Shown here piece by piece: positions 1-60,463 of a stretch of 64,000 bases of DNA. Numbering within the stretch: the first letter of the stretch is position 1; every line of letters begins with the position of its first letter. The DNA comes from Eledone cirrhosa. Taxonomy: Eukaryota. Where the stretch lies: the NCBI GenBank assembly GCA_964016885.1, contig OZ024747.1, positions 69,936,001 through 70,000,000 on the forward strand. The letters run 5' to 3'. The notes beneath the pieces are model-generated. The model was not told where the DNA came from and searched no databases. It saw only the letters and a program-made list of their open reading frames with translations. The translations under genes were made by a program, and so were the position numbers.

Positions 1-600
1 ATTTGCTTCACAGAATTCTAGGATTCTGGAGCCTTCCTCATTTCTAGTACCGAACCCATAGCCTCCATGGATTTCGTCGTAGCCGTCACAATGTTGTCCA
101 ACGTGACCATTTAGGTCGCCTGCAATAATTATATAGTCACTGTCGGTTATTTGGGAGGTAGTGAGCATCGGTGTCTCATAGAATCTGTCTTTTATAGTGC
201 CGGGCAGTCCGGATTGGGGTGCGTACGCGGATATTACTGTCACCGTAGTTCTATTGAGGACAAGTCTTATTTTAATTATTCTGTCGTTCACTCTATTTAC
301 GTCTATTATCTTATCTGCCCACTTTTCTGCTACCATGATTCCTACTCCACCCAGCCCATTGTCATTTCCCACCCAGAAAAGCTTATAGCATCGTTTTTTA
401 CCCACAATGAATCTAGCAGACCCACCCCTCCACCTGGTCTCTTGAATACAATAAACATCGACCTATTTACGTTCAAGCATTTCTACAACCTCGTTAGAGC
501 GACCCTTTAAGGTGCCTACATTCATGGTACCAACTCTGAAGTTTTGGATTGCGTTTGGTGGGTGGGCGCGGGGGAGCACGGGGGGAGAAGGGGTTATGTT
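1..600 (-). mobile_element. RTE-clade LINE fragment, APE endonuclease region, degraded
   Basis: Minus-strand translation gives VGTMNVGTLKGRSNEVVEMLERK*VDVYCIQETRWRG, SAYAPQSG, IIAGDLNGHVG and GGYGFGTRNEEGSRILEFC, which are APE motifs typical of RTE LINEs; one stop and a frameshift. Confidence 0.85.
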
Positions 601-2835: not shown

Positions 2836-4093
2836 CATGCACACATATATATATGTACGTATGGATATATATATATAGAAGCCCAATTTGCATATCGAGT
2901 GGGTTAATCGGCCGGGTGCACCGAAAACGATAAACGGAAAAATTTTCGGTGCACCCAGCCGATTAACCCACTCGATATGCAAATTGGGCTTCTCAGCTGT
3001 TAATATGCATAAGGTAAGTATATACGTTCAACAATCTGGCAGGAAGGTATACGTTGCTGACGATAGCTAATAAGCTTGAAACTAGTACAGCGTTCCTTTG
3101 TCAGTGTTGAACAAACGAGCAACGATGGTTGCTGGACACTACGGCTTAATACGGGATGTTTGTTTACAAACACACCGAGCATTATAATAAATGTTCGGTG
3201 AATCCATACGTACATATATATATGTGTGCATGTATGTATATATATATATATATATATATATACATACTACTGTACGTCTGTATACATATATGTATGTACG
3301 TGTACATACTTATATTTAAGTAACAGCCGTACTAAGAGTGGGAATTGAAATTTCATTTCAATTTTTCCGTTTATCGTTTTCGGTGCACCCGGCCGATTAA
3401 CCCACTCGATATGCAAATTGGGCTTCTCAGCTGTTAATATGCATAAGGCAAGTATATACGTTCAGCAATCTGGCAGGAAGGTATACGTTGCTGACGATAG
3501 CTAATAAGCTTGAAACTAGTACAGCGTTCCTTTGTCAGTGTTGAACAAACGAGCAACGATGGTTGCTGGACACTACGGCTTAATGCGGGATGTTTGTTTA
3601 CAAACACACCGAGCATTATAATAAATGTTCGGTGAATCCATACGTACATATATATATGTGTGCATGTATGTATATATATATATATATATATACATACTAC
3701 TGTACGTCTGTATACATATATGTATGTACGTGTACATACTTATATTTAAGTAACAGCCGTACTAAGCGTGGGAATTGAAATTTCATTTCAATTTTTCCGT
3801 TTATCGTTTTCGGTGCACCCGGCCGATTAACCCACTCGATATGCAAATTGGGCTTCTCAGCTGTTAATATGCATAAGGTAAGTATATACGTTCAACAATC
3901 TGGCAGGAAGGTATACGTTGCTGACGATAGCTAATAAGCTTGAAACTATTACAGCGTTCCTTCGTCAGTGTTGAACAAATGAGCAACGATGGTTGCTGGA
4001 CACTACGGCTTAATACGGGATGTTTGTTTACAAACACACCGAGCATTATAATAAATGTTCGGTGAATCCATACGTACATATATATATGTGTGC

Positions 4094-4138
<45 letters not shown>

Positions 4139-4187
4139 CTACTGTACGTCTGTATACATATATGTATGTACGTGTACATACTTATAT
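2528..4187 (+). mobile_element. Retrozyme-like tandem array, ~430-434-nt unit, 3 HHR copies, with inverted partial copies on the left
   Basis: Direct repeats over 2944-4187 (periods 434 and 430), inverted fragments over 2528-2943, (TA)n on both sides, one HHR per unit. Confidence 0.85.
3051..3093 (+). ncRNA. Minimal type I hammerhead ribozyme (also 3485-3527; 3915-3957 has a stem III mutation)
   Basis: ACGTTG CTGACGA TAGCT-AATA-AGCTT GAAA CTAG TA CAGCGT: stem I ACGTTG/CAGCGT, intact core, palindromic stem III, GUA site (cut after 3087). Confidence 0.88.
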
Positions 4188-19797: not shown

Positions 19798-19829
<32 letters not shown>

Positions 19830-19832
19830 ATA

Positions 19833-20905
19833 TATTTAGAAACACACAGATACATGCGGACACACACATATACATGAATGCATCCGCACCCAACCGTGAG
19901 TTACGGGTGCCAACTTCACCGATGTTGCTCAATGAATGACTGGGACAGACCAATCCGGTTGAACTAGACTGAACCAGTATCAGAGTTAAAAATACATTAT
20001 GAAGAGAGAAGAAACATTTAGATATAATTAGTAATAAAATGTATCACACCTAAACTGCTCCTAGATTCCTCGACTACGTAGTTTCGTGGCATAAACAAAA
20101 ACAATACATCATAAAGATATAGAGTCCTTGCGAGGTCTGCCGACTTATCAAGAGGATACCTCATTTTACTAGTCTCAAGAACGCGTCTACACGACGTGAG
20201 AAAGAATCCCAAAAGGCGGAGGGGGAGATAGTCACGCGATATAACGGTCGAGAAACAGAGCTAAGCCTCTTATAACCCCGAAGAAAATACCACGGAGGCG
20301 GAGGGGGTATTTATATCGAAGCCGTAGAAGAGGTGGTGAAGGAGCAACCGGATTGGTCTGTCCCAGTCATTCATTGAGCAACATCGGGGAAGTTGGCACC
20401 CTTAACTCACGGTTGGGTGCGGATGCATTCATGTATATGTGTGTGTCCGCATGTATCTGTGTGTTTCTAAATATATTGTTAATAACTCCCTCTGGTCGAG
20501 CAATCTTTGAAGTGTGGGGACTGCTGGAAAGCTTCCATTACTCATACTTCTTGCCCCCTTCACCACCTCTTCTACGGCTTCGATATAAATACCCCCTCCG
20601 CCTCCGTGGTATTTTCTTCGGGGTTATAAGAGGCTTAGCTCTGTTTCTCGACCGTTATATCGCGTGACTATCTCCCCCCCCCCCCCCCGCCTTTTGGGAT
20701 TCTTTCTCACGTCGTGTAGACGCGTTCTTGAGACTAGTAAAATGAGATATCCTGTTGATAAGTCGGCAGACCTCGCAAGGACTCTATATCTTTATGATGT
20801 ATTGTTTTTGTTTATGCCACGAAACTACGTAGTCGTGGAATCTAGGAGCAGTTTAGGTATGATACATTTTATTACTAATTATATCTAAATGTTTCTTCTC
20901 TCTTC

Positions 20906-20910
<5 letters not shown>
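19833..20910. mobile_element. Diverged dispersed copy of the 591-nt retrozyme-like family, head-to-head inversion near 20345
   Basis: Strong similarity to the 35364-42210 unit; minus HHR 20067-20156 intact, plus HHR about 20750-20839 with stem I mutations. Confidence 0.85.
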
Positions 20911-20958
<48 letters not shown>

Positions 20959-21508: not shown

Positions 21509-21761
21509 ATATATATATAAATGTATATATGTATATATTAGAAAGTGAGGGTTTTTTACAAAATGAAAAATAACCGAGGTGTCCTACACGAGTGACAGTA
21601 TAAGGAAAAAAGATGAAATCGAAAATGCAACTGGAGTCTTATTTTAGAAAAAATATATATACACAGACCCTCCATCTCAACTTTACTTTTGAAAAGCAGA
21701 ACTACGAAACCGGTAGAGGAACCAAATAAATATATTTTCGATTTCATCTTTTTTCCTTATG

Positions 21762-22004: not shown

Positions 22005-22211
<207 letters not shown>

Positions 22212-22871
22212 ATATTTGGGGAGGGTCATATTTGCGTAATATTGCCAGAATTAATAACAGAACACACTCACTGTTTGGTTGGTTTTCGCTTCTCGCTGTC
22301 TTTTATATATATATATCTGCGATCTAACTTACTCGGTCCTCAATGTTGCCATTGACTGACCGGCGGTCAAAAATAATACAGATACAATATAGACAAACAC
22401 ATATATATATAGTTTACATAAATCTTTCGTTGCACATCTGCAACATCGTCAGTGGTGTTATATTCATTGCTCCTCCTGTTGTGTTGTATGTCTACGCCAT
22501 TTTTTTTTGTTCAGTCTGTCTATATATTTATTTATTTATTTGCTTGTTTGTTTATCTTATTTTATTTTGTCTTCTTTGCGCATGCGTTTGCGTGTGTGTA
22601 TAGTGTTATGTGTGATGTGTGACTAGTGTGTATAGTGTTGTGTCTGCTGGGTGACTAGTGTGTGTTTATGTGCTTGTGTATGTATTTATTTATCTTATTT
22701 TATTTTAATTTAATTTACTTATTTATTTATACTTCTCTTAGGTCAGTGTTGTTTGTTTGGGTGTTGTTGTTGTTCCACTCATTCTTTCTGTTTAGCTTTG
22801 GTCTTCTAATTTCTATTTCACTGGCCTCTCTGATTTGCCTATCTGCTGGGTCATTCCTATGTTTAGATAAT

Positions 22872-24701
22872 ATAGCTAGCAACTACAGGATCTCCTACTT
22901 CCTCTCAATGGTTATGCGCCCCATAATCAAGATGTCCCCAGATGTATGTGAAAGTACAGAGGACCTCCTCAGCAGAATCAGTGAGTGCAACAAAAACAGG
23001 AGCCTATCCAACTGCATAATAGGCAGCATGGATGTGGTGTCACTGTACCCATCCATTAACATTGATTTTGCTGTGAAAAGATGTGTGGAGATGATCATTG
23101 AGAGTGAGGTGGAGTTCTGCGACGTCGACACAGACGAACTGGGCCTCCTACTTAGACTTACCTACGACACTGACTACCTAGACAGCCATGACCTTAGATG
23201 TTTCTGCCCTAGTAGACCTATAAGAGGTAGACCCCCCACCATAACCTCAATGGCTAAAAAGACTCCCATAGGAAGGTGGATTGGGTGGACCAAAGCTATA
23301 CGGACCCCCCAAAACACTGATCAGGTAAGAAAAATGGTCGCACATGCAATAGGGGCTAGTATCAAAACTACCCTAAAGGGCCACATATTTAAGTTCAATG
23401 AGAAAATCTACACCCAAAATGAGGGAGCAGCCATCGGCGTCAGCATAGCTGGCGATGTTGCCAACCTTTTCATGGTATGGTGGGAAAGGAGACTTAAAGA
23501 TCTCCTTAATGAAAGCTCCATAGACCTCATCATGTACTCTCGTTATGTAGACGATATCAATATAGTTATAAGAACACCCCCACTAGAGAGCACTAACAAG
23601 TTTGATTTAGAACGTAGCACGATGGAAAGCATCCAGCAGATAGCTAATTCCATACACCAGAGTATAACTGTAACTATAGACTTCCCTTCCAAACACCCTA
23701 ACAATAGACTACCTGTATTAGACACAGAACTCTGGATTAACACTATAGACGAGAGAGCCCAAATTCTCCACTCACACTATGCTAAACCCATGGCCTCCAA
23801 ATACCTGATACTCAAAAACTCAGCAATGTCCAGTAGTGCTAAGTTTAATATTCTGATCGCAGATTTGGTACGAGTGATGAAGAATGTGTCCAGCATGTGC
23901 GACCCAACAGAAATGGAAGGACACATCCAACACTTCATCAACCGCATGCAGTTCTCTGGCTACAACCAAAGAGACAGAGTCAGAGTATACGAAGGAGCCA
24001 TGGAAAAGTATAAGACCCTCATAGAACTGGACATGAAAGGAATTTGCCCACTATACAGGAGCAAATCATGGAATAGCTTAGATAGGGCTAGACATAAGAT
24101 AGGGAAGGCCACATCATGGTACGACAACCAGAGATATCAGAGTGTCATGTTTGTGGACGCCACCCCTGGAGGGAAATTAGCTAACCAGTGTAGAAAGGCC
24201 CTGAGAAAGACCCACTTAAAAATAAAGGTGGTAGAAAAGCCAGGAACCACCATAAAATCCCTGATCAGCAAAACCTACCCTTTTAAGAAAACCCACTGTA
24301 CCAATAGGAAATGTATCATATGTAAGGTGAACCCCCGGATAAACTGTAAAACTAGAAACGTAGTCTATAGCATAAGATGTACAGAGGGTACTTGCAGAAA
24401 CACGACAACAACATACATAGGTGAGACAGCTCGTAGCATAGGTGAAAGGATAGACCAACACTGGGGGGAACTAAAAGGACGAAAAAACGGGTCAGTACTA
24501 TACGAACATGCTAGACAACATCATGACGGTAACATAGACAACATAGAAATTAGAATAATATCTAAACATAGGAATGACCCAGCAGATAGGCAAATCAGAG
24601 AGGCCAGTGAAATAGAAATTAGAAGACCAAAGCTAAACAGAAAGAATGAGTGGAACAACAACAACACCCAAACAAACAACACTGACCTAAGAGAAGTATA
24701 A
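22872..24701 (+). CDS. PLE reverse transcriptase plus C-terminal GIY-YIG endonuclease (N-terminally truncated, uninterrupted frame)
   Basis: RT motifs GSMDVVSLYPSI, QNEGAAIG, YSRYVDD, LPVLD, HYAKP; Cys linker CTNRKCIIC; GIY-YIG NVVYSIRC..YIGETARSIGERIDQH..HARQHH..REASEI..LN. Confidence 0.92.
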   Translation: MASNYRISYFLSMVMRPIIKMSPDVCESTEDLLSRISECNKNRSLSNCIIGSMDVVSLYPSINIDFAVKRCVEMIIESEVEFCDVDTDELGLLLRLTYDTDYLDSHDLRCFCPSRPIRGRPPTITSMAKKTPIGRWIGWTKAIRTPQNTDQVRKMVAHAIGASIKTTLKGHIFKFNEKIYTQNEGAAIGVSIAGDVANLFMVWWERRLKDLLNESSIDLIMYSRYVDDINIVIRTPPLESTNKFDLERSTMESIQQIANSIHQSITVTIDFPSKHPNNRLPVLDTELWINTIDERAQILHSHYAKPMASKYLILKNSAMSSSAKFNILIADLVRVMKNVSSMCDPTEMEGHIQHFINRMQFSGYNQRDRVRVYEGAMEKYKTLIELDMKGICPLYRSKSWNSLDRARHKIGKATSWYDNQRYQSVMFVDATPGGKLANQCRKALRKTHLKIKVVEKPGTTIKSLISKTYPFKKTHCTNRKCIICKVNPRINCKTRNVVYSIRCTEGTCRNTTTTYIGETARSIGERIDQHWGELKGRKNGSVLYEHARQHHDGNIDNIEIRIISKHRNDPADRQIREASEIEIRRPKLNRKNEWNNNNTQTNNTDLREV

Positions 24702-24968
24702 ATAAATAAGTAAATTAAATTAAAATAAAATAAGATAAATAAATACATACACAAGCACATAAACACACACTAGTCACCCAGCAGACACAACACTATACAC
24801 ACTAGTCACACATCACACATAACACTATACACACACGCAAACGCATGCGCAAAGAAGACAAAATAAAATAAGATAAACAAACAAGCAAATAAATAAATAA
24901 ATATATAGACAGACTGAACAAAAAAAAATGGCGTAGACATACAACACAACAGGAGGAGCAATGAATAT

Positions 24969-25012
24969 AACACCACTGACGATGTTGCAGATGTGCAACG
25001 AAAGATTTATGT
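24969..25012 (+). ncRNA. Minimal HHR-like motif in the PLE 3' UTR/pseudo-LTR
   Basis: CTGACGA T GTTGCA-GATG-TGCAAC GAAA GATT TA TG; weak stems I/III. Relatives at 45353-45380 (+) and 26020-26062 (-) show compensatory stem II GTCACA/TGTGAC. Confidence 0.6.
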
Positions 25013-25264
25013 AAACTATATATATATGTGTTTGTCTATATTGTATCTGTATTATTTTTGACCGCCGGTCAGTCAATGGCAACATTGAGGACCGAGTAAG
25101 TTAGATCGCAGATATATATATATAAAAGACAGCGAGAAGCGAAAACCAACCAAACAGTGAGTGTGTTCTGTTATTAATTCTGGCAATATTACGCAAATAT
25201 GACCCTCCCCAAATATAACAATATCTGTTTCGACACACGATTTCATATAAAAAACCTCGCAAAA

Positions 25265-25863: not shown

Positions 25864-26405
25864 TATTGTTATACTTTGGGAGGGTCATGTTGCCAACAAG
25901 AAACACATGCACCAGTTGCTTTCACTCCAATTTATTATAAATTAAATTTATAACTTTAAGAAATTTGTAAATTTTCGGCTGGTTGGTTGGTTCCACAACC
26001 GGACGGTTGTTCATATATTGTCAAAGTTCTTTCGTCACACATTCTGTGACCTCTTCACTGACTGGGGATTCTTTTCTTTGTTCTGTCCTATGCCATCTTG
26101 TTTTTGTGTATGTTGTGTGCTAAGTTTGTGCATGTGTTACATCCGGGTGTCTGTGTGTGTTTTTATTTGTTTATATATTTGTTTATTTAAATGTTACTAG
26201 TTGGTTGTTTGTTCTATGTGTGTGTGTTTTCATTTTGTCCTTAATTGTAAGTTGTGATTTTGCTATTCCATTCATGTTTTCCATTTAATTTAGAATAAAT
26301 TGGAGTGAAAGGAACTGGTGCGTATGTTTCTTATTGGCAACATGACCCTGCCAAAGTATAACAATATCGGTTTCAACACACGTTTTCAGATAAAGAATCT
26401 TGCTA
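25864..26405. mobile_element. Non-coding relative of the PLE 3' end with inversion
   Basis: Shares ATGACCCTCCC..TATAACAATATC..TTTCRACACACG terminus with 25198-25262; inverted arms about 25864-25940 and 26290-26365. Other relatives at 44040-44166 and 45300-45627. Confidence 0.7.
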
Positions 26406-26479
26406 AAGAAATTCAGAAACGATATATATATACATAATATAAGGAAATGTTTCTTTGTTTTTATCCATTATTTTTATTA

Positions 26480-26622
<143 letters not shown>

Positions 26623-26763
26623 TAATAAAAATAATGGATAAAAACAAAGAAACATTTCCTTATATTAAAAAATTCATCATTTTACGATCGTTTCTAGGAT
26701 ATATATGTATGTGTTGGTATGTATATCATATAGATCTAATGATATTTTTTCAATAAACAAATA

Positions 26764-26903
26764 TCATTATTTCTGAAGACAGCATATATATGTGTAGGTA
26801 TGTATATTCCCTCTGATAGTTTGTAAACATTTTACATAGATCTATATGATATACATACCAACACACACATATATATATCCTAGAAACGATCGTAAAATGA
26901 TGA
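26764..26903 (+). ncRNA. Type I HHR with ~100-nt extended stem II, inside an inverted-repeat element (about 26620-27083)
   Basis: TCATTATTT CTGAAGA [long hairpin] GAAA CGATCG TA AAATGATGA. Confidence 0.7.
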
Positions 26904-27080
26904 ATTATTTAATTTAAGGAACTGTTTCTTTGTTTTTTTTCATTATTTTTATTAATTCATCTTGACTCTGTTTTCCTGTGTTTTTCATCGAAAAGATTTT
27001 GAATACATCTTCTCTTTTCATGATATTTGGATTACATCGAGTTCTTCATACAGATTGGACACTACCGTACATTTTGGTAG

Positions 27081-27130
<50 letters not shown>

Positions 27131-27135
<5 letters not shown>

Positions 27136-28035
27136 AACGAGTAGGACCCCGACGGCTGAGCTCAAGCCGTTTCGACGGCTAATTCTGGACTAAATGAACA
27201 TTTTTATCCTGGTATTTGAATAGCCGAGCTTCTCAAGGGGTAATTCCATATATGGTCAAAGTGATTGTCAAGGCAAGCAACCACCCAGTGCAAAAAAGTA
27301 AACTAATACGAAATGCTTGCCTTGTGCCTGGGGTAGAAACCGTTAGTTATTATTTCGTGGTAGTTTCTTTAGTATTTTGGCCCCTCACTTGTTGACCCGT
27401 CACCGTAAGATATACTCGGTTTATTACTTATACCTCTTAAAAGGGTCTCATTATAATCCCGTCACACCTAGTATATTTTTTTAGCCCAGCAGTACCAGTG
27501 AGAGACTTAAGTCGTAGAAACCAGAAATTGTTTTTTTTTTTGTTTTTTTTTACATTTAATTGCCTTTTAACACTCTCAGTATTTTTCTATATATTTACCC
27601 CTTATTGTTCTACTTATTGTTTCGACTTCCTCCCCCTCCCTAGTATCTTCTTTGACCTCATGCCCAGCTGTAGTCGGCACTATCAACGCATGAATGGGTC
27701 TCCTCCACCCCCTCTCACTCTTTCTCCTACTGGCAGGTTTAGCTACCCCTTCCCTCCACAAATTGCCATCATAGAATTATTATGTCTCAACAACAAACTT
27801 TTGACCAATCCTTGTGACAATCACTTTGACCATATATGGAATTACCCCTTGACAAGCTCGGTTATTCAAATAGCAGGATAAAAAATGTTCATTTAGTCCA
27901 GAATTAGCCGTCAAAACGGCTTGAGCTCAGCCGTCGGGGTCCTAGTCGTTCCTATTACCCACTCTACTACCCAAAGTATTGAGTACTTTGGTGTGTTATG
28001 GTCCACCTGGTTCCTTACCACATTTCCTCCGTTAT
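27131..28035. mobile_element. Inverted-repeat element with U3-A8 variant HHRs (minus 27146-27241; plus 27844-27940)
   Basis: ACCCC TTGAGAA GCTCGGCTA..TAGCCGTC GAAA CGGCT-TGAGCTC-AGCCG TC GGGGT; arms about 27131-27272 and 27810-27955; plus copy has GAAA>AAAA. Confidence 0.78.
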
Positions 28036-35177: not shown

Positions 35178-35363
35178 ATATATAAAAATATATATATATA
35201 TAAATATATATAGATATAGATATATATATGTATGTATATATGTATATAAATATGTATTATATGTTTGTATATATGTATATATATATATATATGTATGTAT
35301 ATATGTATATAAATATGTATATATATATGTTTGTATATATGTATATATATATATATATATATA

Positions 35364-38300
35364 TACATTTAGAAACACACAGATACATGCGGACACACAC
35401 ATATATACATGAATGCATCCGCACCCAACTGTGAGTTAAGGGTGCCAACTTCACCGATGTTGCTCAATGAATGACTGGGACAGACCAATTCAGTTTGAAC
35501 CAGACTGAACCAGTATCAGAGTTAAAAATACATTATGAAGAGAGAAGAAACATTTAGATATAATTAGTAATAAAATGTATCATACCCAAACTGTTCCTAA
35601 ATTCCTCGACTACGTAGTTTCGTGGCATAAACAAAAACAATATATCAAAGATATAGAGTCCTTGCGAGGTCTGCCGACTTATCAAGAGGATACCTCATTT
35701 TACTAGTCTCAAGAACGCGTCTACACGACGTGAGAAAGAATCCCAAAAGGCGGAGGGGGAGATAGTCACGCGATATAACGGTCGAGAAACAGAGCTAAGC
35801 CTCTTATAACCACGAAAAAAATACCACGGAGGCGGAGGGGGTATTCATATCGAGGCCGTAGAAGAGGTAGTGAAGAAGGCGAGAAGTATGAGTAATGGAA
35901 GCTTTCCAGTTGTCCCCACACTTCAAAGATTGCTCGACCAGAGGGAGTTATTAATACATTTAGAAACACACAGATACATGCGGACACACACATATATACA
36001 TGAATGCATCCGCACCCAACTGTGAGTTAAGGGTGCCAACTTCACCGATGTTGCTCAATGAATGACTGGGACAGACCAATTCAGTTTGAACCAGACTGAA
36101 CCAGTATCAGAGTTAAAAATACATTATGAAGAGAGAAGAAACATTTAGATATAATTAGTAATAAAATGTATCATACCCAAACTGTTCCTAAATTCCTCGA
36201 CTACGTAGTTTCGTGGCATAAACAAAAACAATATATCAAAGATATAGAGTCCTTGCGAGGTCTGCCGACTTATCAAGAGGATACCTCATTTTACTAGTCT
36301 CAAGAACGCGTCTACACGACGTGAGAAAGAATCCCAAAAGGCGGAGGGGGAGATAGTCACGCGATATAACGGTCGAGAAACAGAGCTAAGCCTCTTATAA
36401 CCACGGAAAAAATACCACGGAGGCGGAGGGGGTATTCATATCGAGGCCGTAGAAGAGGTAGTGAAGAAGGCGAGAAGTATGAGTAATGGAAGCTTTCCAG
36501 TTGTCCCCACACTTCAAAGATTGCTCGACCAGAGGGAGTTATTAATACATTTAGAAACACACAGATACATGCGGACACACACATATATACATGAATGCAT
36601 CCGCACCCAACTGTGAGTTAAGGGTGCCAACTTCACCGATGTTGCTCAATGAATGACTGGGACAGACCAATTCAGTTTGAACCAGACTGAACCAGTATCA
36701 GAGTTAAAAATACATTATGAAGAGAGAAGAAACATTTAGATATAATTAGTAATAAAATGTATCATACCCAAACTGTTCCTAAATTCCTCGACTACGTAGT
36801 TTCGTGGCATAAACAAAAACAATATATCAAAGATATAGAGTCCTTGCGAGGTCTGCCGACTTATCAAGAGGATACCTCATTTTACTAGTCTCAAGAACGC
36901 GTCTACACGACGTGAGAAAGAATCCCAAAAGGCGGAGGGGGAGATAGTCACGCGATATAACGGTCGAGAAACAGAGCTAAGCCTCTTATAACCACGAAAA
37001 AAATACCACGGAGGCGGAGGGGGTATTCATATCGAGGCCGTAGAAGAGGTAGTGAAGAAGGCGAGAAGTATGAGTAATGGAAGCTTTCCAGTTGTCCCCA
37101 CACTTCAAAGATTGCTCGACCAGAGGGAGTTATTAATACATTTAGAAACACACAGATACATGCGGACACACACATATATACATGAATGCATCCGCACCCA
37201 ACTGTGAGTTAAGGGTGCCAACTTCACCGATGTTGCTCAATGAATGACTGGGACAGACCAATTCAGTTTGAACCAGACTGAACCAGTATCAGAGTTAAAA
37301 ATACATTATGAAGAGAGAAGAAACATTTAGATATAATTAGTAATAAAATGTATCATACCCAAACTGTTCCTAAATTCCTCGACTACGTAGTTTCGTGGCA
37401 TAAACAAAAACAATATATCAAAGATATAGAGTCCTTGCGAGGTCTGCCGACTTATCAAGAGGATACCTCATTTTACTAGTCTCAAGAACGCGTCTACACG
37501 ACGTGAGAAAGAATCCCAAAAGGCGGAGGGGGAGATAGTCACGCGATATAACGGTCGAGAAACAGAGCTAAGCCTCTTATAACCACGAAAAAAATACCAC
37601 GGAGGCGGAGGGGGTATTCATATCGAGGCCGTAGAAGAGGTAGTGAAGAAGGCGAGAAGTATGAGTAATGGAAGCTTTCCAGTTGTCCCCACACTTCAAA
37701 GATTGCTCGACCAGAGGGAGTTATTAATACATTTAGAAACACACAGATACATGCGGACACACACATATATACATGAATGCATCCGCACCCAACTGTGAGT
37801 TAAGGGTGCCAACTTCACCGATGTTGCTCAATGAATGACTGGGACAGACCAATTCAGTTTGAACCAGACTGAACCAGTATCAGAGTTAAAAATACATTAT
37901 GAAGAGAGAAGAAACATTTAGATATAATTAGTAATAAAATGTATCATACCCAAACTGTTCCTAAATTCCTCGACTACGTAGTTTCGTGGCATAAACAAAA
38001 ACAATATATCAAAGATATAGAGTCCTTGCGAGGTCTGCCGACTTATCAAGAGGATACCTCATTTTACTAGTCTCAAGAACGCGTCTACACGACGTGAGAA
38101 AGAATCCCAAAAGGCGGAGGGGGAGATAGTCACGCGATATAACGGTCGAGAAACAGAGCTAAGCCTCTTATAACCACGAAAAAAATACCACGGAGGCGGA
38201 GGGGGTATTCATATCGAGGCCGTAGAAGAGGTAGTGAAGAAGGCGAGAAGTATGAGTAATGGAAGCTTTCCAGTTGTCCCCACACTTCAAAGATTGCTCG

Positions 38301-41300
38301 ACCAGAGGGAGTTATTAATACATTTAGAAACACACAGATACATGCGGACACACACATATATACATGAATGCATCCGCACCCAACTGTGAGTTAAGGGTGC
38401 CAACTTCACCGATGTTGCTCAATGAATGACTGGGACAGACCAATTCAGTTTGAACCAGACTGAACCAGTATCAGAGTTAAAAATACATTATGAAGAGAGA
38501 AGAAACATTTAGATATAATTAGTAATAAAATGTATCATACCCAAACTGTTCCTAAATTCCTCGACTACGTAGTTTCGTGGCATAAACAAAAACAATATAT
38601 CAAAGATATAGAGTCCTTGCGAGGTCTGCCGACTTATCAAGAGGATACCTCATTTTACTAGTCTCAAGAACGCGTCTACACGACGTGAGAAAGAATCCCA
38701 AAAGGCGGAGGGGGAGATAGTCACGCGATATAACGGTCGAGAAACAGAGCTAAGCCTCTTATAACCACGAAAAAAATACCACGGAGGCGGAGGGGGTATT
38801 CATATCGAGGCCGTAGAAGAGGTAGTGAAGAAGGCGAGAAGTATGAGTAATGGAAGCTTTCCAGTTGTCCCCACACTTCAAAGATTGCTCGACCAGAGGG
38901 AGTTATTAATACATTTAGAAACACACAGATACATGCGGACACACACATATATACATGAATGCATCCGCACCCAACTGTGAGTTAAGGGTGCCAACTTCAC
39001 CGATGTTGCTCAATGAATGACTGGGACAGACCAATTCAGTTTGAACCAGACTGAACCAGTATCAGAGTTAAAAATACATTATGAAGAGAGAAGAAACATT
39101 TAGATATAATTAGTAATAAAATGTATCATACCCAAACTGTTCCTAAATTCCTCGACTACGTAGTTTCGTGGCATAAACAAAAACAATATATCAAAGATAT
39201 AGAGTCCTTGCGAGGTCTGCCGACTTATCAAGAGGATACCTCATTTTACTAGTCTCAAGAACGCGTCTACACGACGTGAGAAAGAATCCCAAAAGGCGGA
39301 GGGGGAGATAGTCACGCGATATAACGGTCGAGAAACAGAGCTAAGCCTCTTATAACCACGAAAAAAATACCACGGAGGCGGAGGGGGTATTCATATCGAG
39401 GCCGTAGAAGAGGTAGTGAAGAAGGCGAGAAGTATGAGTAATGGAAGCTTTCCAGTTGTCCCCACACTTCAAAGATTGCTCGACCAGAGGGAGTTATTAA
39501 TACATTTAGAAACACACAGATACATGCGGACACACACATATATACATGAATGCATCCGCACCCAACTGTGAGTTAAGGGTGCCAACTTCACCGATGTTGC
39601 TCAATGAATGACTGGGACAGACCAATTCAGTTTGAACCAGACTGAACCAGTATCAGAGTTAAAAATACATTATGAAGAGAGAAGAAACATTTAGATATAA
39701 TTAGTAATAAAATGTATCATACCCAAACTGTTCCTAAATTCCTCGACTACGTAGTTTCGTGGCATAAACAAAAACAATATATCAAAGATATAGAGTCCTT
39801 GCGAGGTCTGCCGACTTATCAAGAGGATACCTCATTTTACTAGTCTCAAGAACGCGTCTACACGACGTGAGAAAGAATCCCAAAAGGCGGAGGGGGAGAT
39901 AGTCACGCGATATAACGGTCGAGAAACAGAGCTAAGCCTCTTATAACCACGAAAAAAATACCACGGAGGCGGAGGGGGTATTCATATCGAGGCCGTAGAA
40001 GAGGTAGTGAAGAAGGCGAGAAGTATGAGTAATGGAAGCTTTCCAGTTGTCCCCACACTTCAAAGATTGCTCGACCAGAGGGAGTTATTAATACATTTAG
40101 AAACACACAGATACATGCGGACACACACATATATACATGAATGCATCCGCACCCAACTGTGAGTTAAGGGTGCCAACTTCACCGATGTTGCTCAATGAAT
40201 GACTGGGACAGACCAATTCAGTTTGAACCAGACTGAACCAGTATCAGAGTTAAAAATACATTATGAAGAGAGAAGAAACATTTAGATATAATTAGTAATA
40301 AAATGTATCATACCCAAACTGTTCCTAAATTCCTCGACTACGTAGTTTCGTGGCATAAACAAAAACAATATATCAAAGATATAGAGTCCTTGCGAGGTCT
40401 GCCGACTTATCAAGAGGATACCTCATTTTACTAGTCTCAAGAACGCGTCTACACGACGTGAGAAAGAATCCCAAAAGGCGGAGGGGGAGATAGTCACGCG
40501 ATATAACGGTCGAGAAACAGAGCTAAGCCTCTTATAACCACGAAAAAAATACCACGGAGGCGGAGGGGGTGTCCGCATGTATCTGTGTGTTTCTAAATGT
40601 ATTAATAACTCCCTCTGGTCGAGCAATCTTTGAAGTGTGGGGACAACTGGAAAGCTTCCATTACTCATACTTCTCGCCTTCTTCACTACCTCTTCTACGG
40701 CCTCGATATGAATACCCCCTCCGCCTCCGTGGTATTTTTTTCGTGGTTATAAGAGGCTTAGCTCTGTTTCTCGACCGTTATATCGCGTGACTATCTCCCC
40801 CTCCGCCTTTTGGGATTCTTTCTCACGTCGTGTAGACGCGTTCTTGAGACTAGTAAAATGAGGTATCCTCTTGATAAGTCGGCAGACCTCGCAAGGACTC
40901 TATATCTTTGATATATTGTTTTTGTTTATGCCACGAAACTACGTAGTCGAGGAATTTAGGAACAGTTTGGGTATGATACATTTTATTACTAATTATATCT
41001 AAATGTTTCTTCTCTCTTCATAATGTATTTTTAACTCTGATACTGGTTCAGTCTGGTTCAAACTGAATTGGTCTGTCCCAGTCATTCATTGAGCAACATC
41101 GGTGAAGTTGGCACCCTTAACTCACAGTTGGGTGCGGATGCATTCATGTATATATGTGTGTGTCCGCATGTATCTGTGTGTTTCTAAATGTATTAATAAC
41201 TCCCTCTGGTCGAGCAATCTTTGAAGTGTGGGGACAACTGGAAAGCTTCCATTACTCATACTTCTCGCCTTCTTCACTACCTCTTCTACGGCCTCGATAT

Positions 41301-42204
41301 GAATACCCCCTCCGCCTCCGTGGTATTTTTTTCGTGGTTATAAGAGGCTTAGCTCTGTTTCTCGACCGTTATATCGCGTGACTATCTCCCCCTCCGCCAT
41401 TTGGGATTCTTTCTCACGCCGTGTAGACGCGTTCTTGAGACTAGTAAAATGAGGTATCCTCTTGATAAGTCGGCAGACCTCGCAAGGACTCTATATCTTT
41501 GATATATTGTTTTTGTTTATGCCACGAAACTACATAGTCGAGGAATTTAGGAACAGTTTGGGTATGATACATTTTATTACTAATTATATCTAAATGTTTC
41601 TTCTCTCTTCATAATGTATTTTTAACTCTGATACTGGTTCAGTCTGGTTCAAACTGAATTGGTCTGTCCCAGTCATTCATTGAGCAACATCGGTGAAGTT
41701 GGCACCCTTAACTCACAGTTGGGTGCGGATGCATTCATGTATATATGTGTGTGTCCGCATGTATCTGTGTGTTTCTAAATGTATTAATAACTCCCTCTGG
41801 TCGAGCAATCTTTGAAGTGTGGGGACAACTGGAAAGCTTCCATTACTCATACTTCTCGCCTTCTTCACTACCTCTTCTACGGCCTCGATATGAATACCCC
41901 CTCCGCCTCCGTGGTATTTTTTTCGTGGTTATAAGAGGCTTAGCTCTGTTTCTCGACCGTTATATCGCGTGACTATCTCCCCCTCCGCCTTTTGGGATTC
42001 TTTCTCACGTCGTGTAGACGCGTTCTTGAGACTAGTAAAATGAGGTATCCTCTTGATAAGTCGGCAGACCTCGCAAGGACTCTATATCTTTGATATATTG
42101 TTTTTGTTTATGCCACGAAACTACGTAGTCGAGGAATTTAGGAACAGTTTGGGTATGATACATTTTATTACTAATTATATCTAAATGTTTCTTCTCTCTT
42201 CATA

Positions 42205-42210
<6 letters not shown>
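35364..42210. mobile_element. Retrozyme-like tandem array, 591-nt unit: ~8.8 copies on minus and ~2.8 on plus, inversion at 40570
   Basis: Exact 591 period (also visible in the ORF track), near-identical units, one HHR per unit (12 total), (TA)n at both ends. Confidence 0.9.
40866..40953 (+). ncRNA. Type I HHR, U3-A8 core variant (also 41457-41544, 42048-42135; minus copies 35603-35690 then every 591 nt to 40331-40418)
   Basis: TCCTC TTGATAA GTCGGCA..TGCCAC GAAA CTACGTAG TC GAGGA: stem I TCCTC/GAGGA, palindromic stem III, GUC site (cut after 40948). Confidence 0.85.
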
Positions 42211-59246: not shown

Positions 59247-60235
59247 TTTCTTTTATTTGCCACTAGGGCATCAAAAGTGGGACAAGTACAAAGGGGGGAG
59301 TTTACACAAAAAGGCGTCCTCAATAAGGAGGAGGCAATAACAAAATATAAAAATAAAATAAGATATAACAAAAAATAAAATTTTTAACAAAATCCTCAAT
59401 AGAGAGGAGGCGCCTTGGGGGGTCGCACACACCCCCGAAAAAAGTGTGCAACCCTTCTCCTCAGGAGCACAGAGAAGGGGTGCTCCCTTGGTCTTTCATC
59501 TTCCTCACCTATAGTCTGATGTAGAGTGAAGGCCCATTCACACGGGCCATTCTCGCCACTTTCACCCATCTTTCATAGAAACGGCTGGGGTGCAGCACCT
59601 CTCTCTCCATCCTGATCCTTCTTCCGAAATGATATCGGAAGAAACGGACCAGTTGTTGGCCAGAGAGAAAGGTGCCCGACCTCAGTCCTTTCAGACGCGT
59701 CCACCATACAACCTCTTTCGCCATGGCTATTACGCACAGAAACACCGCCTCTGCTTCATCTTTGAAGGGGGGAGGCGGCTTGATCATTACAATAGACTCG
59801 GTGGTCAACCGGATCGGTCCCACCCTTGACAGCAGTTGTTCGACATAGCCCCACAGATCGGCTACGCCCGAGCAGTGTACTAATGCGTGTGCAACGGTTT
59901 CCTCGTCGCACACGCATCTGGGACAGATCTTTTTGGCGGGGTCCCTACCCGGGCGCCCGTGTCTGTAGAGCCTTTCTCGAACGGGTAAAGCCCCTCGGTA
60001 GCACTGCCAGGCCAGGGACTTCTGGAAGTTGTCCATAGGTCCCGGGCTGAATGTCCTACCGAACAGGCTGGCCAGTTCGTCCTCCTCCATGTCTAGGGCT
60101 TCTCCGAGGGCGTCGTCGCACCTGCTGCGTACCAGCCCTCTATAGAATGTTGCGGTGGAGTCTCCACTGATAACCGGATCCGCCTGCCAGAGGGCGGTGA
60201 GCGCCTGGGCACACTCAGTGTGCCAGGCGCCCACC
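59245..60235 (-). mobile_element. L1/Tx1-like LINE 3' end (zf-RVT region 59509-60235 plus 3' UTR)
   Basis: SLAWQCYRGALPVRERL..CPRCVCDEETVAHALVHC..LW zinc-binding motif; GC-rich open frame; AATAAA near the end; bounded by (TA)n and (GATA)n. Confidence 0.85.
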
Positions 60236-60277
<42 letters not shown>

Positions 60278-60408
60278 CAGATAGATAGAGAGGTATGTAT
60301 GCAAATAAACTCTCTCTCTCTCTTGTATATATATATATAGAAGAGCGTGAAACTAATAAACCTTTGTTTGTACTGCCTCTCTGTTTTTGTTCCCGTTCCA
60401 ATTTTCAC

Positions 60409-60463
<55 letters not shown>

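What the first reader, a model, noticed from the sequence alone, without database searches (positions are those of the whole stretch)
40866..40953. Rare U3-A8 catalytic core used by several unrelated HHR families
Seen: TTGATAA replaces CTGATGA in all 591-nt units; TTGAGAA/TTGACAA occurs in the 27.1-27.9 kb family; a possible TTGAAAA lies at 21689. Known: C3-G8 is a Watson-Crick pair in the active fold, and compensatory U3-A8 retains activity but is uncommon in nature. Inference: paired changes at both positions argue for function, and standard CUGANGA searches would miss these families.
Basis: partly seen in the sequence, partly recalled or inferred. Interest (0 to 1): 0.72.

Follow-up and report, generated by a model that had tools for sequence, protein, structure and literature searches.

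The report
Swapped-pair hammerheads in Penelope-driven repeats
A protein-free 591-base repeat with thousands of copies, and two distantly related Penelope-like jumping genes in the same genome, carry a predicted self-cutting RNA motif whose core C-G pair is swapped to U-A, a swap already in print; one of the jumping genes also spread to over a thousand copies with that pair mismatched and likely restored it later, so cutting is likely dispensable for that gene but probably needed by the repeat.

Summary
Observation confirmed. 40866-40953 is a type I hammerhead motif with a U3-A8 core in a non-coding 591-nt unit (family A; 5,610 of 5,633 genome matches U3-A8). It works like a non-LTR retrozyme: arrays of up to 8.8 units, two fixed 3' ends in (TA)n, inverted arms, core conserved in a 70%-identical sister subfamily. 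The 27-kb motif belongs to a Hydra-type Penelope-like element (PLE); 21689 is a decayed copy from a Neptune/Nematis-type PLE (6,535 matches). The families are unrelated, but U3-A8 is not rare here (11 of 32 hammerheads in 800 kb of evenly spaced sample) and is published (Perreault 2011; Cervera 2014, Schistosoma PLEs). An ORF tree places them as a ladder between older and younger U3-A8 subfamilies (AU p=1e-4), with the ORF under purifying selection. The pair was likely lost, tolerated and restored. Cleavage is untested. This scan noted family A-type repeats, U3-A8 cores and the mismatch before on other DNA; its notes as shown did not mention the restoration.

The parts
40866..40953 (+). Family A type I hammerhead motif: stem I 40866-70/40949-53; U3-A8 core 40871-77; helix II arm 40878-40934; GAAA 40935-38; palindromic helix III 40938-47; predicted cut after C17 at 40948
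   Evidence: hammerhead fold within 1.1 kcal/mol of the local MFE
40569..42210 (+). Plus arm of the family A insertion, 2.78 units of 591 nt (cores at 40871, 41462, 42053); 3' end about 80 nt past the cut site, running into (TA)n
35363..40570 (-). Inverted arm of the same insertion, 8.81 units (9 cores, 35685-40413); 3' end about 245 nt past the cut site, running into (TA)n
19828..20914 (.). Second, older family A insertion, same inverted build with the same two ends; core at 20151(-) intact, core at 20755(+) with broken stem I
27134..28033 (.). Family B: inverted 3' stub of a Hydra-type PLE; hammerhead cores at 27236-27230 (-, TTGAGAA) and 27849-27855 (+, TTGACAA, G12 changed to A)
21540..21757 (+). 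Family C: decayed 3' stub of a Neptune/Nematis-type PLE; core TTGAAAA at 21689-21695 with damaged stems I and II

Best explanation
The 591-base unit is a protein-free repeat carrying a hammerhead motif with a U3-A8 core; it likely cuts itself out of multimeric transcripts, likely closes into an RNA circle, and is likely copied into (TA)n sites by a Penelope-like reverse transcriptase. Steps. (1) Shown: tandem units, one motif each, no ORF. (2) Inferred: two neighbouring motifs pair their palindromic helix III to form a double hammerhead and cut after C17. (3) Inferred: the monomer ligates to a highly paired circle. (4) Inferred: a PLE protein cuts both DNA strands in (TA)n and starts reverse transcription at two fixed sites of the RNA (about +80 and +245 from the cut), one on each DNA end, rolling round the circle; this gives the inverted, more-than-unit arrays. 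U3-A8 is a working alternative to C3-G8 found in at least three unrelated lineages of this genome, likely by independent origin. In the autonomous Hydra-type family B the pair is likely not required for spreading: the master lineage carried C3·A8 through several successive subfamilies and then returned to U3-A8, which suggests weak selection for the pair rather than strict need.
For: Conservation: versus the A' subfamily, 41 of 42 stem and core columns are identical against 68% elsewhere (P=2e-6), and the two longest identical runs are the two hammerhead halves. Circular monomer folds at z=-7.4 against 60 shuffles; the double hammerhead is 5.2 kcal/mol better than two single ones. 3' ends: 35 at +74..80, 23 at +241..253 and 1 elsewhere, of 59; 19 of 22 inverted pairs use one end each; 5' ends scatter over positions 2-576, only 2 of 61 within 10 nt after the cut site. 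Units within an insertion share one locus-specific haplotype across both arms (6 two-arm loci among 8 examined). Two internal start sites, double-strand cutting at AT-rich DNA and the 'tail' are shown for a lizard PLE (PMC11167929). Family B: ORF tree of 42 copies needs 2 changes at position 3; the younger U3-A8 clade has support 98/90 and is nested in the C3·A8 grade; C3·A8 monophyly is rejected (AU p=1.1e-4; p=0.004 on 33 rows). Shared ORF changes among C3·A8 copies are 22 synonymous to 8 non-synonymous, private ones 66 to 119 (p=2e-4). Hammerhead mutants did not block insertion in vitro by the lizard PLE.
Against: No cleavage, ligation or circle was observed. Covariation inside family A is not above shuffles: the core stems never vary, and only 1 pair changes on both sides. 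The double-hammerhead fold lies 8.9 kcal/mol above the MFE of the two-unit region. No PLE sharing family A's ends or hammerhead was found in the loci held, so the partner is unidentified. Homogeneous arrays also fit an uncut transcript of a homogeneous source array, or later unequal crossover. In one type III hammerhead scan only G3-C8 rescued. The U-to-C-to-U changes lie next to a run of C, so mutation bias could give the return without selection; it is a single event.
Confidence: 0.68

Rival explanations
1. The U3-A8 motifs are weak or inactive relics; the RNA is copied uncut, and the motif is conserved as a structural or protein-binding element near the reverse-transcription start sites rather than as a catalyst.
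For: Family B spread with C3·A8. A very abundant Hydra-type relative has a fixed U4A core (15 of 16 sampled copies). 5' ends do not pile at the cut site. Lizard PLE insertion in vitro does not need cleavage. Naiad PLEs lack canonical hammerheads (PMC8557442).
Against: At score >=22, 30 of 32 sampled cores keep a Watson-Crick 3-8 pair, in two different forms. C3-G8 and U3-A8 alternate between homologous ~310-nt repeats. The pair is a tertiary contact of the catalytic fold (PMC3088659). A non-coding unit with up to 8.8 identical copies is easiest to make from a circle.
Confidence: 0.2
2. Family A is an orphaned pseudo-LTR of a PLE or a satellite whose arrays grew by DNA recombination; no RNA circle is involved.
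For: Fixed ends and inverted arms are PLE marks. Retrozymes and pLTRs are related in Xenopus (10.64898/2026.07.22.740005 passages). Units in an array are nearly identical, as concerted evolution would also give.
Against: No ORF was found joined to a family A unit in the loci held. Arrays are dispersed over many chromosomes, each with its own haplotype shared by both inverted arms and with the same two 3' ends. The monomer is strongly self-paired.
Confidence: 0.08
3. The family B mismatch is only apparent: CUGAGA works in a shifted register (no N7, extra A before helix II) or as a tolerated C·A pair, so all subfamilies cleave and nothing was lost.
For: C3 copies nearly all have G7, which spells CUGAGA. 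An extra base before helix II is usual in PLE hammerheads. Natural deviant cores with residual activity exist.
Against: The G7 link is also explained by descent. Single changes in the CUGA region were low-activity in the scan read. The TTGATAA subfamily fits only the normal register.
Confidence: 0.12

Closest known systems
Metazoan non-LTR retrozymes (Cervera and de la Pena 2020, PMC7229834: passages and section 14 read; Li, Clavereau and Pollet 2026, 10.64898/2026.07.22.740005: part 1 of 5 and passages read)
   Same: Non-coding tandem units, one type I hammerhead each, palindromic helix III, GC under 45%, predicted highly paired circle, thousands of dispersed copies, PLEs in the same genome.
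   Different: 591-595 nt against about 170-400 nt; U3-A8 core; 57-nt helix II arm; inverted arms with two fixed 3' ends; RNA and circle not shown here.
U3-A8 minimal hammerheads of Cercyon PLEs, Schistosoma mansoni (Cervera and de la Pena 2014, PMC4209133; parts 1-2 of 4 read, supplements not read)
   Same: Same core swap, in PLE-linked type I motifs, about 1,300 hits, missed by the standard descriptor.
   Different: Here the swap is in a retrozyme-like unit and in two distant PLE clades of one genome, with over 13,000 matches summed over; motifs A and B have long helices II and III.
Natural U3-A8 hammerheads (Perreault et al. 2011, PMC3088659; passages and section 8 read)
   Same: C3-G8 covaries to U3-A8 in nature; the paper cites earlier in vitro activity for such swaps.
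   Different: Rare examples there; a third of sampled motifs here. No amplified C3·A8 lineage appears in the parts read.
Hydra clade PLEs (Craig et al. 2021, PMC8557442; section 11, passages, supplement part 2 of 59 read)
   Same: Family B has the DKT, RWK-like, CxCX5C, CxxC and CxH marks, a C-terminal GIY-YIG region, (TA)n targets and a 3' hammerhead.
   Different: Every Hydra hammerhead listed in File S2 has C3-G8; family B has U3-A8 or C3·A8, a long palindromic helix III, and is longer than 3 kb.
PAc Poseidon PLE of Anolis (Frangieh et al. 2024, PMC11167929; parts 1-2 of 4 read)
   Same: Two internal reverse-transcription start sites, both-strand cutting at AT-rich DNA; hammerhead not needed for insertion in vitro.
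   Different: Canonical C3-G8 core; autonomous; start sites 30-40 nt apart, against about 165 nt in family A.

Membership tests
Type I hammerhead ribozyme (family A motif) | Three helices around the core, helix I open | tested here: met
   (95.9% of cells paired; slid controls 31-58%)
Type I hammerhead ribozyme (family A motif) | U4 G5 A6 A9, G12 A13 A14, A15.1-U16.1, H17, G10.1-C11.1 | tested here: met
Type I hammerhead ribozyme (family A motif) | Watson-Crick pair between positions 3 and 8 | tested here: met
   U3-A8 in 5,610 of 5,633 matches; not the consensus C3-G8
Type I hammerhead ribozyme (family B, C3·A8 subfamilies) | Watson-Crick pair between positions 3 and 8 | tested here: not met
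   only 3 C3-G8 among 63 non-A8 matches
Type I hammerhead ribozyme (family A motif) | Match to an Rfam hammerhead model | tested here: not met
   no hammerhead family at E<=10
Type I hammerhead ribozyme (family A motif) | Loop 1-loop 2 tertiary contact | not tested
   not examined
Type I hammerhead ribozyme (family A motif) | Site-specific self-cleavage | not testable with these tools
   needs an assay
Non-LTR retrozyme (family A) | Tandem units with a type I hammerhead in each | tested here: met
   12 of 12 cores in the main array
Non-LTR retrozyme (family A) | No protein encoded; GC under 45% | tested here: met
   no frame of 150 aa or more in the arrays; GC about 42%
Non-LTR retrozyme (family A) | Monomer of about 170-400 nt | tested here: not met
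   591-595 nt; the range is descriptive
Non-LTR retrozyme (family A) | Highly self-paired monomer | tested here: met
   predicted only: z=-7.4, 62% paired
Non-LTR retrozyme (family A) | Accumulates as circular RNA | not testable with these tools
   needs RNA from the organism
Non-LTR retrozyme (family A) | Related to the pLTR of an autonomous PLE | tested here: inconclusive
   PLE-type ends, but no partner in the loci held; no whole-genome test possible
Hydra clade PLE (family B) | DKT for DKG, RWK motif, CxCX5C linker, CxxC and CxH near the C-terminus, (TA)n target | tested here: met
   read by eye from the 710-aa frame in L072 against section 11; RWK reads RWR
Hydra clade PLE (family B) | Canonical hammerhead; generally under 3 kb | tested here: not met
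   variant cores; at least 2.1 kb ORF plus about 1.15 kb 3' UTR
Hydra clade PLE (family B) | Placement with reference Hydra proteins in an RT tree | not tested
   reference proteins not available as tool sequences; no Pfam hit
Neptune/Nematis-type PLE (family C) | RT plus C-terminal GIY-YIG, GxKF, DKG, CX2-5CxxC linker | tested here: met
   770-aa frame in L202; Pfam RVT_1 and GIY-YIG above cut-off
Neptune/Nematis-type PLE (family C) | Clade placement in an RT tree | not tested
   no reference set held

The most novel reading that the evidence does not exclude
This genome holds a dated fossil series of a ribozyme crossing a fitness valley: an autonomous Hydra-type PLE went from U3-A8 to a catalytically broken C3·A8 core, made over a thousand copies through successive subfamilies with its ORF under selection, then restored the pair, while a relative fixed a U4A core and the protein-free retrozymes kept paired cores. 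Hammerhead cleavage would then be optional for autonomous PLEs but essential for their circular-RNA parasites, and PLE relaxation would be the route by which new core pairs such as U3-A8 arise and are passed on.
Probability: 0.35. Interest if true: 0.7.

Novelty: new member of a known kind. Interest (0 to 1): 0.46.

Why it matters
The U3-A8 swap itself is known, so the headline claim is not new. Two things are useful. First, descriptor and Rfam searches would miss about a third of the hammerheads in this genome, so animal counts based on CUGANGA are too low. Second, whether PLE hammerheads must cut is stated as unclear in the PLE literature (PMC8557442). Family B supplies natural alleles (U3-A8, C3·A8, U3-A8 again) in a nearly constant background with a known order and copy numbers, and family A supplies a non-coding contrast. 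A handful of cleavage assays would test the question directly and show whether a two-step core swap can pass through a mismatched stage in nature.

Tried and rejected
DNA search of the own genome with the motif gave nothing because common words are skipped; patterns were used instead. Whole-window Rfam scan: the 150 rows shown were microsatellite-driven miRNA-type hits. The look-up of sequencing runs: no RNA holder listed. Contigs of four runs of unknown kind were laid: three join back by 591 nt, which fits a tandem array or a circle alike, and none lists a change in the core; not used as evidence on expression. Search for family A's autonomous partner through flanking ORFs, end motifs and widely spaced inverted pairs found only neighbouring, separate insertions. 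A U3·G8 wobble subfamily as stepping stone in family B was considered: 22 TTGAAGA copies exist, but their sister group is mostly U3-A8 (91 of the first 100 of 302), so it is a minor side branch. A first tree on 3' UTR sequence dropped 25 of 101 copies and had a long outgroup branch; ORF trees replaced it (42 of 164 copies had enough ORF, and 13 of the 42 rows fill under half of the columns). Pair counts in family A gave no covariation above shuffles. The Fisher test on the census is not used, because copies of one family are not independent. Przybilski and Hammann 2007 was not held and is known only through Perreault's citation. Literature searches showed no paper on octopod U3-A8 hammerheads or on an amplified C3·A8 lineage. 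The library lacks most subscription papers, bioRxiv supplements are closed, and the supplements of PMC4209133 and PMC7229834 were not read; any of these could list such cases.

Full report
Setting. The window is G000:C7:69,936,001-70,000,000 of a 3.0-Gb genome, AT-rich and full of (TA)n. That it is an octopus-like animal is my recall of such repeat make-up and the wording of earlier scan notes; I did not test it.

The observation. 40866-40953 has every consensus position of a type I hammerhead except that C3-G8 reads U3-A8: stem I of 5 bp, core TTGATAA, helix II closed by G-C and extended by a 57-nt arm, GAAA, a 10-nt palindromic helix III and C17 at 40948. The hammerhead fold is 1.1 kcal/mol from the local minimum. 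All 14 window copies have the same core. With positions 3 and 8 free, a descriptor found 32 motifs in 80 evenly spaced 10-kb pieces: 19 C3-G8, 11 U3-A8, 2 C3·A8 and no other pair; six controls gave 0-2 hits each. By family, that is about seven C3-G8 families and three U3-A8 families at that score, four with family C just below it. Rfam finds no hammerhead at the family A or B sites.

Family A, the element of the finding. A pattern with positions 3, 7 and 8 free matches 5,633 places. Ten are not U3, all of them A8; 13 are not A8, all of them U3; none is C3-G8. These are the single changes expected in dead copies and say nothing on function. A sister subfamily A' (135 matches to a 3' anchor, some of them family A variants) is 70% identical over the unit yet keeps 41 of 42 stem and core columns (P=2e-6 against 68% elsewhere). 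Formal covariation is not above shuffles because the core stems never vary. The unit has no ORF and folds as a circle at z=-7.4; two neighbouring motifs are predicted to prefer the double-hammerhead over two single ones by 5.2 kcal/mol, though this fold is 8.9 above the minimum.

How it was inserted. The window's array is one insertion: 8.81 units on the minus strand and 2.78 on the plus strand, joined at their 5' ends, both running out into (TA)n. Across loci the 3' ends are fixed: 35 at +74..80 and 23 at +241..253 after the cut site, 1 elsewhere. In 19 of 22 inverted pairs one arm uses each end, and 5' ends scatter over the whole unit. Units of one insertion share a private haplotype across both arms (14 shared differences in L087). 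A lizard PLE cuts both strands of AT-rich DNA and starts reverse transcription at two internal sites of its RNA (PMC11167929), and inverted 5'-truncated copies are a PLE mark (PMC8557442). The simplest reading is two priming events on a circular monomer copied round and round. A linear monomer cut at both ends could not give segments that pass the cut site up to nine times. An uncut transcript of a homogeneous array is not excluded. I did not find the partner PLE.

The other families. The 27-kb motif (B) lies about 1.15 kb behind an ORF with Hydra-clade marks. The 21689 site (C) is a decayed copy of a family with 6,535 matches, the first 100 all U3-A8, whose long copies hold a 770-aa RT and GIY-YIG frame with the Neptune/Nematis linker. 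The B and C proteins are about 19% identical, and published Hydra hammerheads are all C3-G8, so independent origin is likely; transfer of a motif between elements is not excluded but the stems share nothing.

In family B, 951 of 1,995 matches are not U3, and 97 of the first 100 listed are C3·A8. An older subfamily adds 366 matches, 91 of the first 100 C3·A8. That makes roughly 1,250 mismatched copies, an extrapolation from the listed rows. Only 3 of 63 non-A8 matches are C3-G8. A still older sister, B2 (82-84% identical in the ORF), is mostly U3-A8 (91 of the first 100 of 302). In an ORF tree of the 42 copies (of 164 held) that reach the ORF, rooted on B2, the 19 C3·A8 copies form a ladder with several strongly supported nested branches, and the 14 younger U3 copies form a clade inside it (98/90); holding C3·A8 together is rejected (AU p=1.1e-4). 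B2 copies have the longest end branches, which fits that order. If the root lay within the ladder, U3-A8 would have arisen twice from C3·A8; either way a mismatch was followed by a restored pair. Shared ORF changes among C3·A8 copies are mostly synonymous (22:8) while private ones are not (66:119; p=2e-4), so the mismatched lineage made working protein while it spread. A very common Hydra-type relative has a fixed U4A core (15 of 16 sampled copies). In a full double-mutant scan of one hammerhead, all single and double changes in this region were low-activity except G3-C8 (PMC9901934 passage), and core mutants did not stop the lizard PLE from inserting in vitro. Cleavage is therefore likely optional for autonomous Hydra-type elements. 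The return to U3 is one event next to a C run and could be mutation bias.

Comparison with what is known. U3-A8 in nature was reported in 2011 (PMC3088659) and in about 1,300 Schistosoma PLE motifs in 2014, found exactly because the standard descriptor missed them (PMC4209133). Non-LTR retrozymes, their circles and their likely PLE origin are described. Family A works like such a retrozyme and meets the sequence-level tests except size; cleavage and circle are untested. Seven searches showed no paper on these octopod-type families or on an amplified mismatched core, within a library that lacks most subscription papers and with several supplements unseen. Earlier notes of this scan describe a 595-nt U3-A8 family with fixed ends, the ~316-nt U3-A8 repeats and the Hydra mismatch in this genome, and U3-A8 cores in other genomes. 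I had found the mismatch before reading them; the restoration does not appear in the lines shown.

Verdict. Real motifs, unrelated carriers, known swap, not rare here. New member of a known kind; interest 0.46. The part worth an experiment is the family B series, which makes the need for cleavage in PLEs directly testable.

Noticed in passing
window 43379 (+), 53931 (+), 44033 (-), 57435 (-); many loci, e.g. L169, L218, L251: An abundant Hydra-type family (ORF about 51% identical to family B) has a complete hammerhead frame with a fixed U4A core (CAGAAGA) and a U-U base to helix II; 15 of 16 copies in the 800-kb sample.
   Followed up: partly
window 22204-25224: A young PLE with a 680-aa RT and GIY-YIG frame (22659-24701) and 670-nt perfect inverted arms; no hammerhead passed my descriptor in its 3' region.
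   Followed up: partly
L099:1251-1800, L098, L187, L142, L147: A clan of ~310-nt retrozyme-like repeats: U3-A8 in L099 and L098, C3-G8 in homologues L187, L142 and L147, the last two in arrays of 4-10 units.
   Followed up: partly
window 9335 (-), 13169 (-), 15061 (-), 19181 and 19647 (+), 33662 (+), 57245 (+): Seven canonical C3-G8 type I hammerhead motifs of several other repeat families, with short palindromic helix III.
   Followed up: no
L252-L266 (e.g. G000:C1:5772333): 22 copies of the older B2 group have a U3·G8 wobble core (TTGAAGA), more than other single changes; possibly a small subfamily.
   Followed up: partly
window 19828-20914, 21540-21757, 22204-25224, 26400-26960, 27134-28033; L178-L179, L206: Different PLE-type insertions pile up next to or inside each other in the same (TA)n tracts, each with its own inverted arms.
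   Followed up: no
window 2943-4187: A 430-nt tandem repeat of 2.9 copies at 96% identity with an inverted neighbour; no hammerhead flagged by my descriptor.
   Followed up: no
window 59509-60462 (-): A 317-aa frame whose C-terminal part has a CxxC...HxxxxC zinc-knuckle-like stretch, resembling the end of a LINE ORF2 (recalled resemblance).
   Followed up: no
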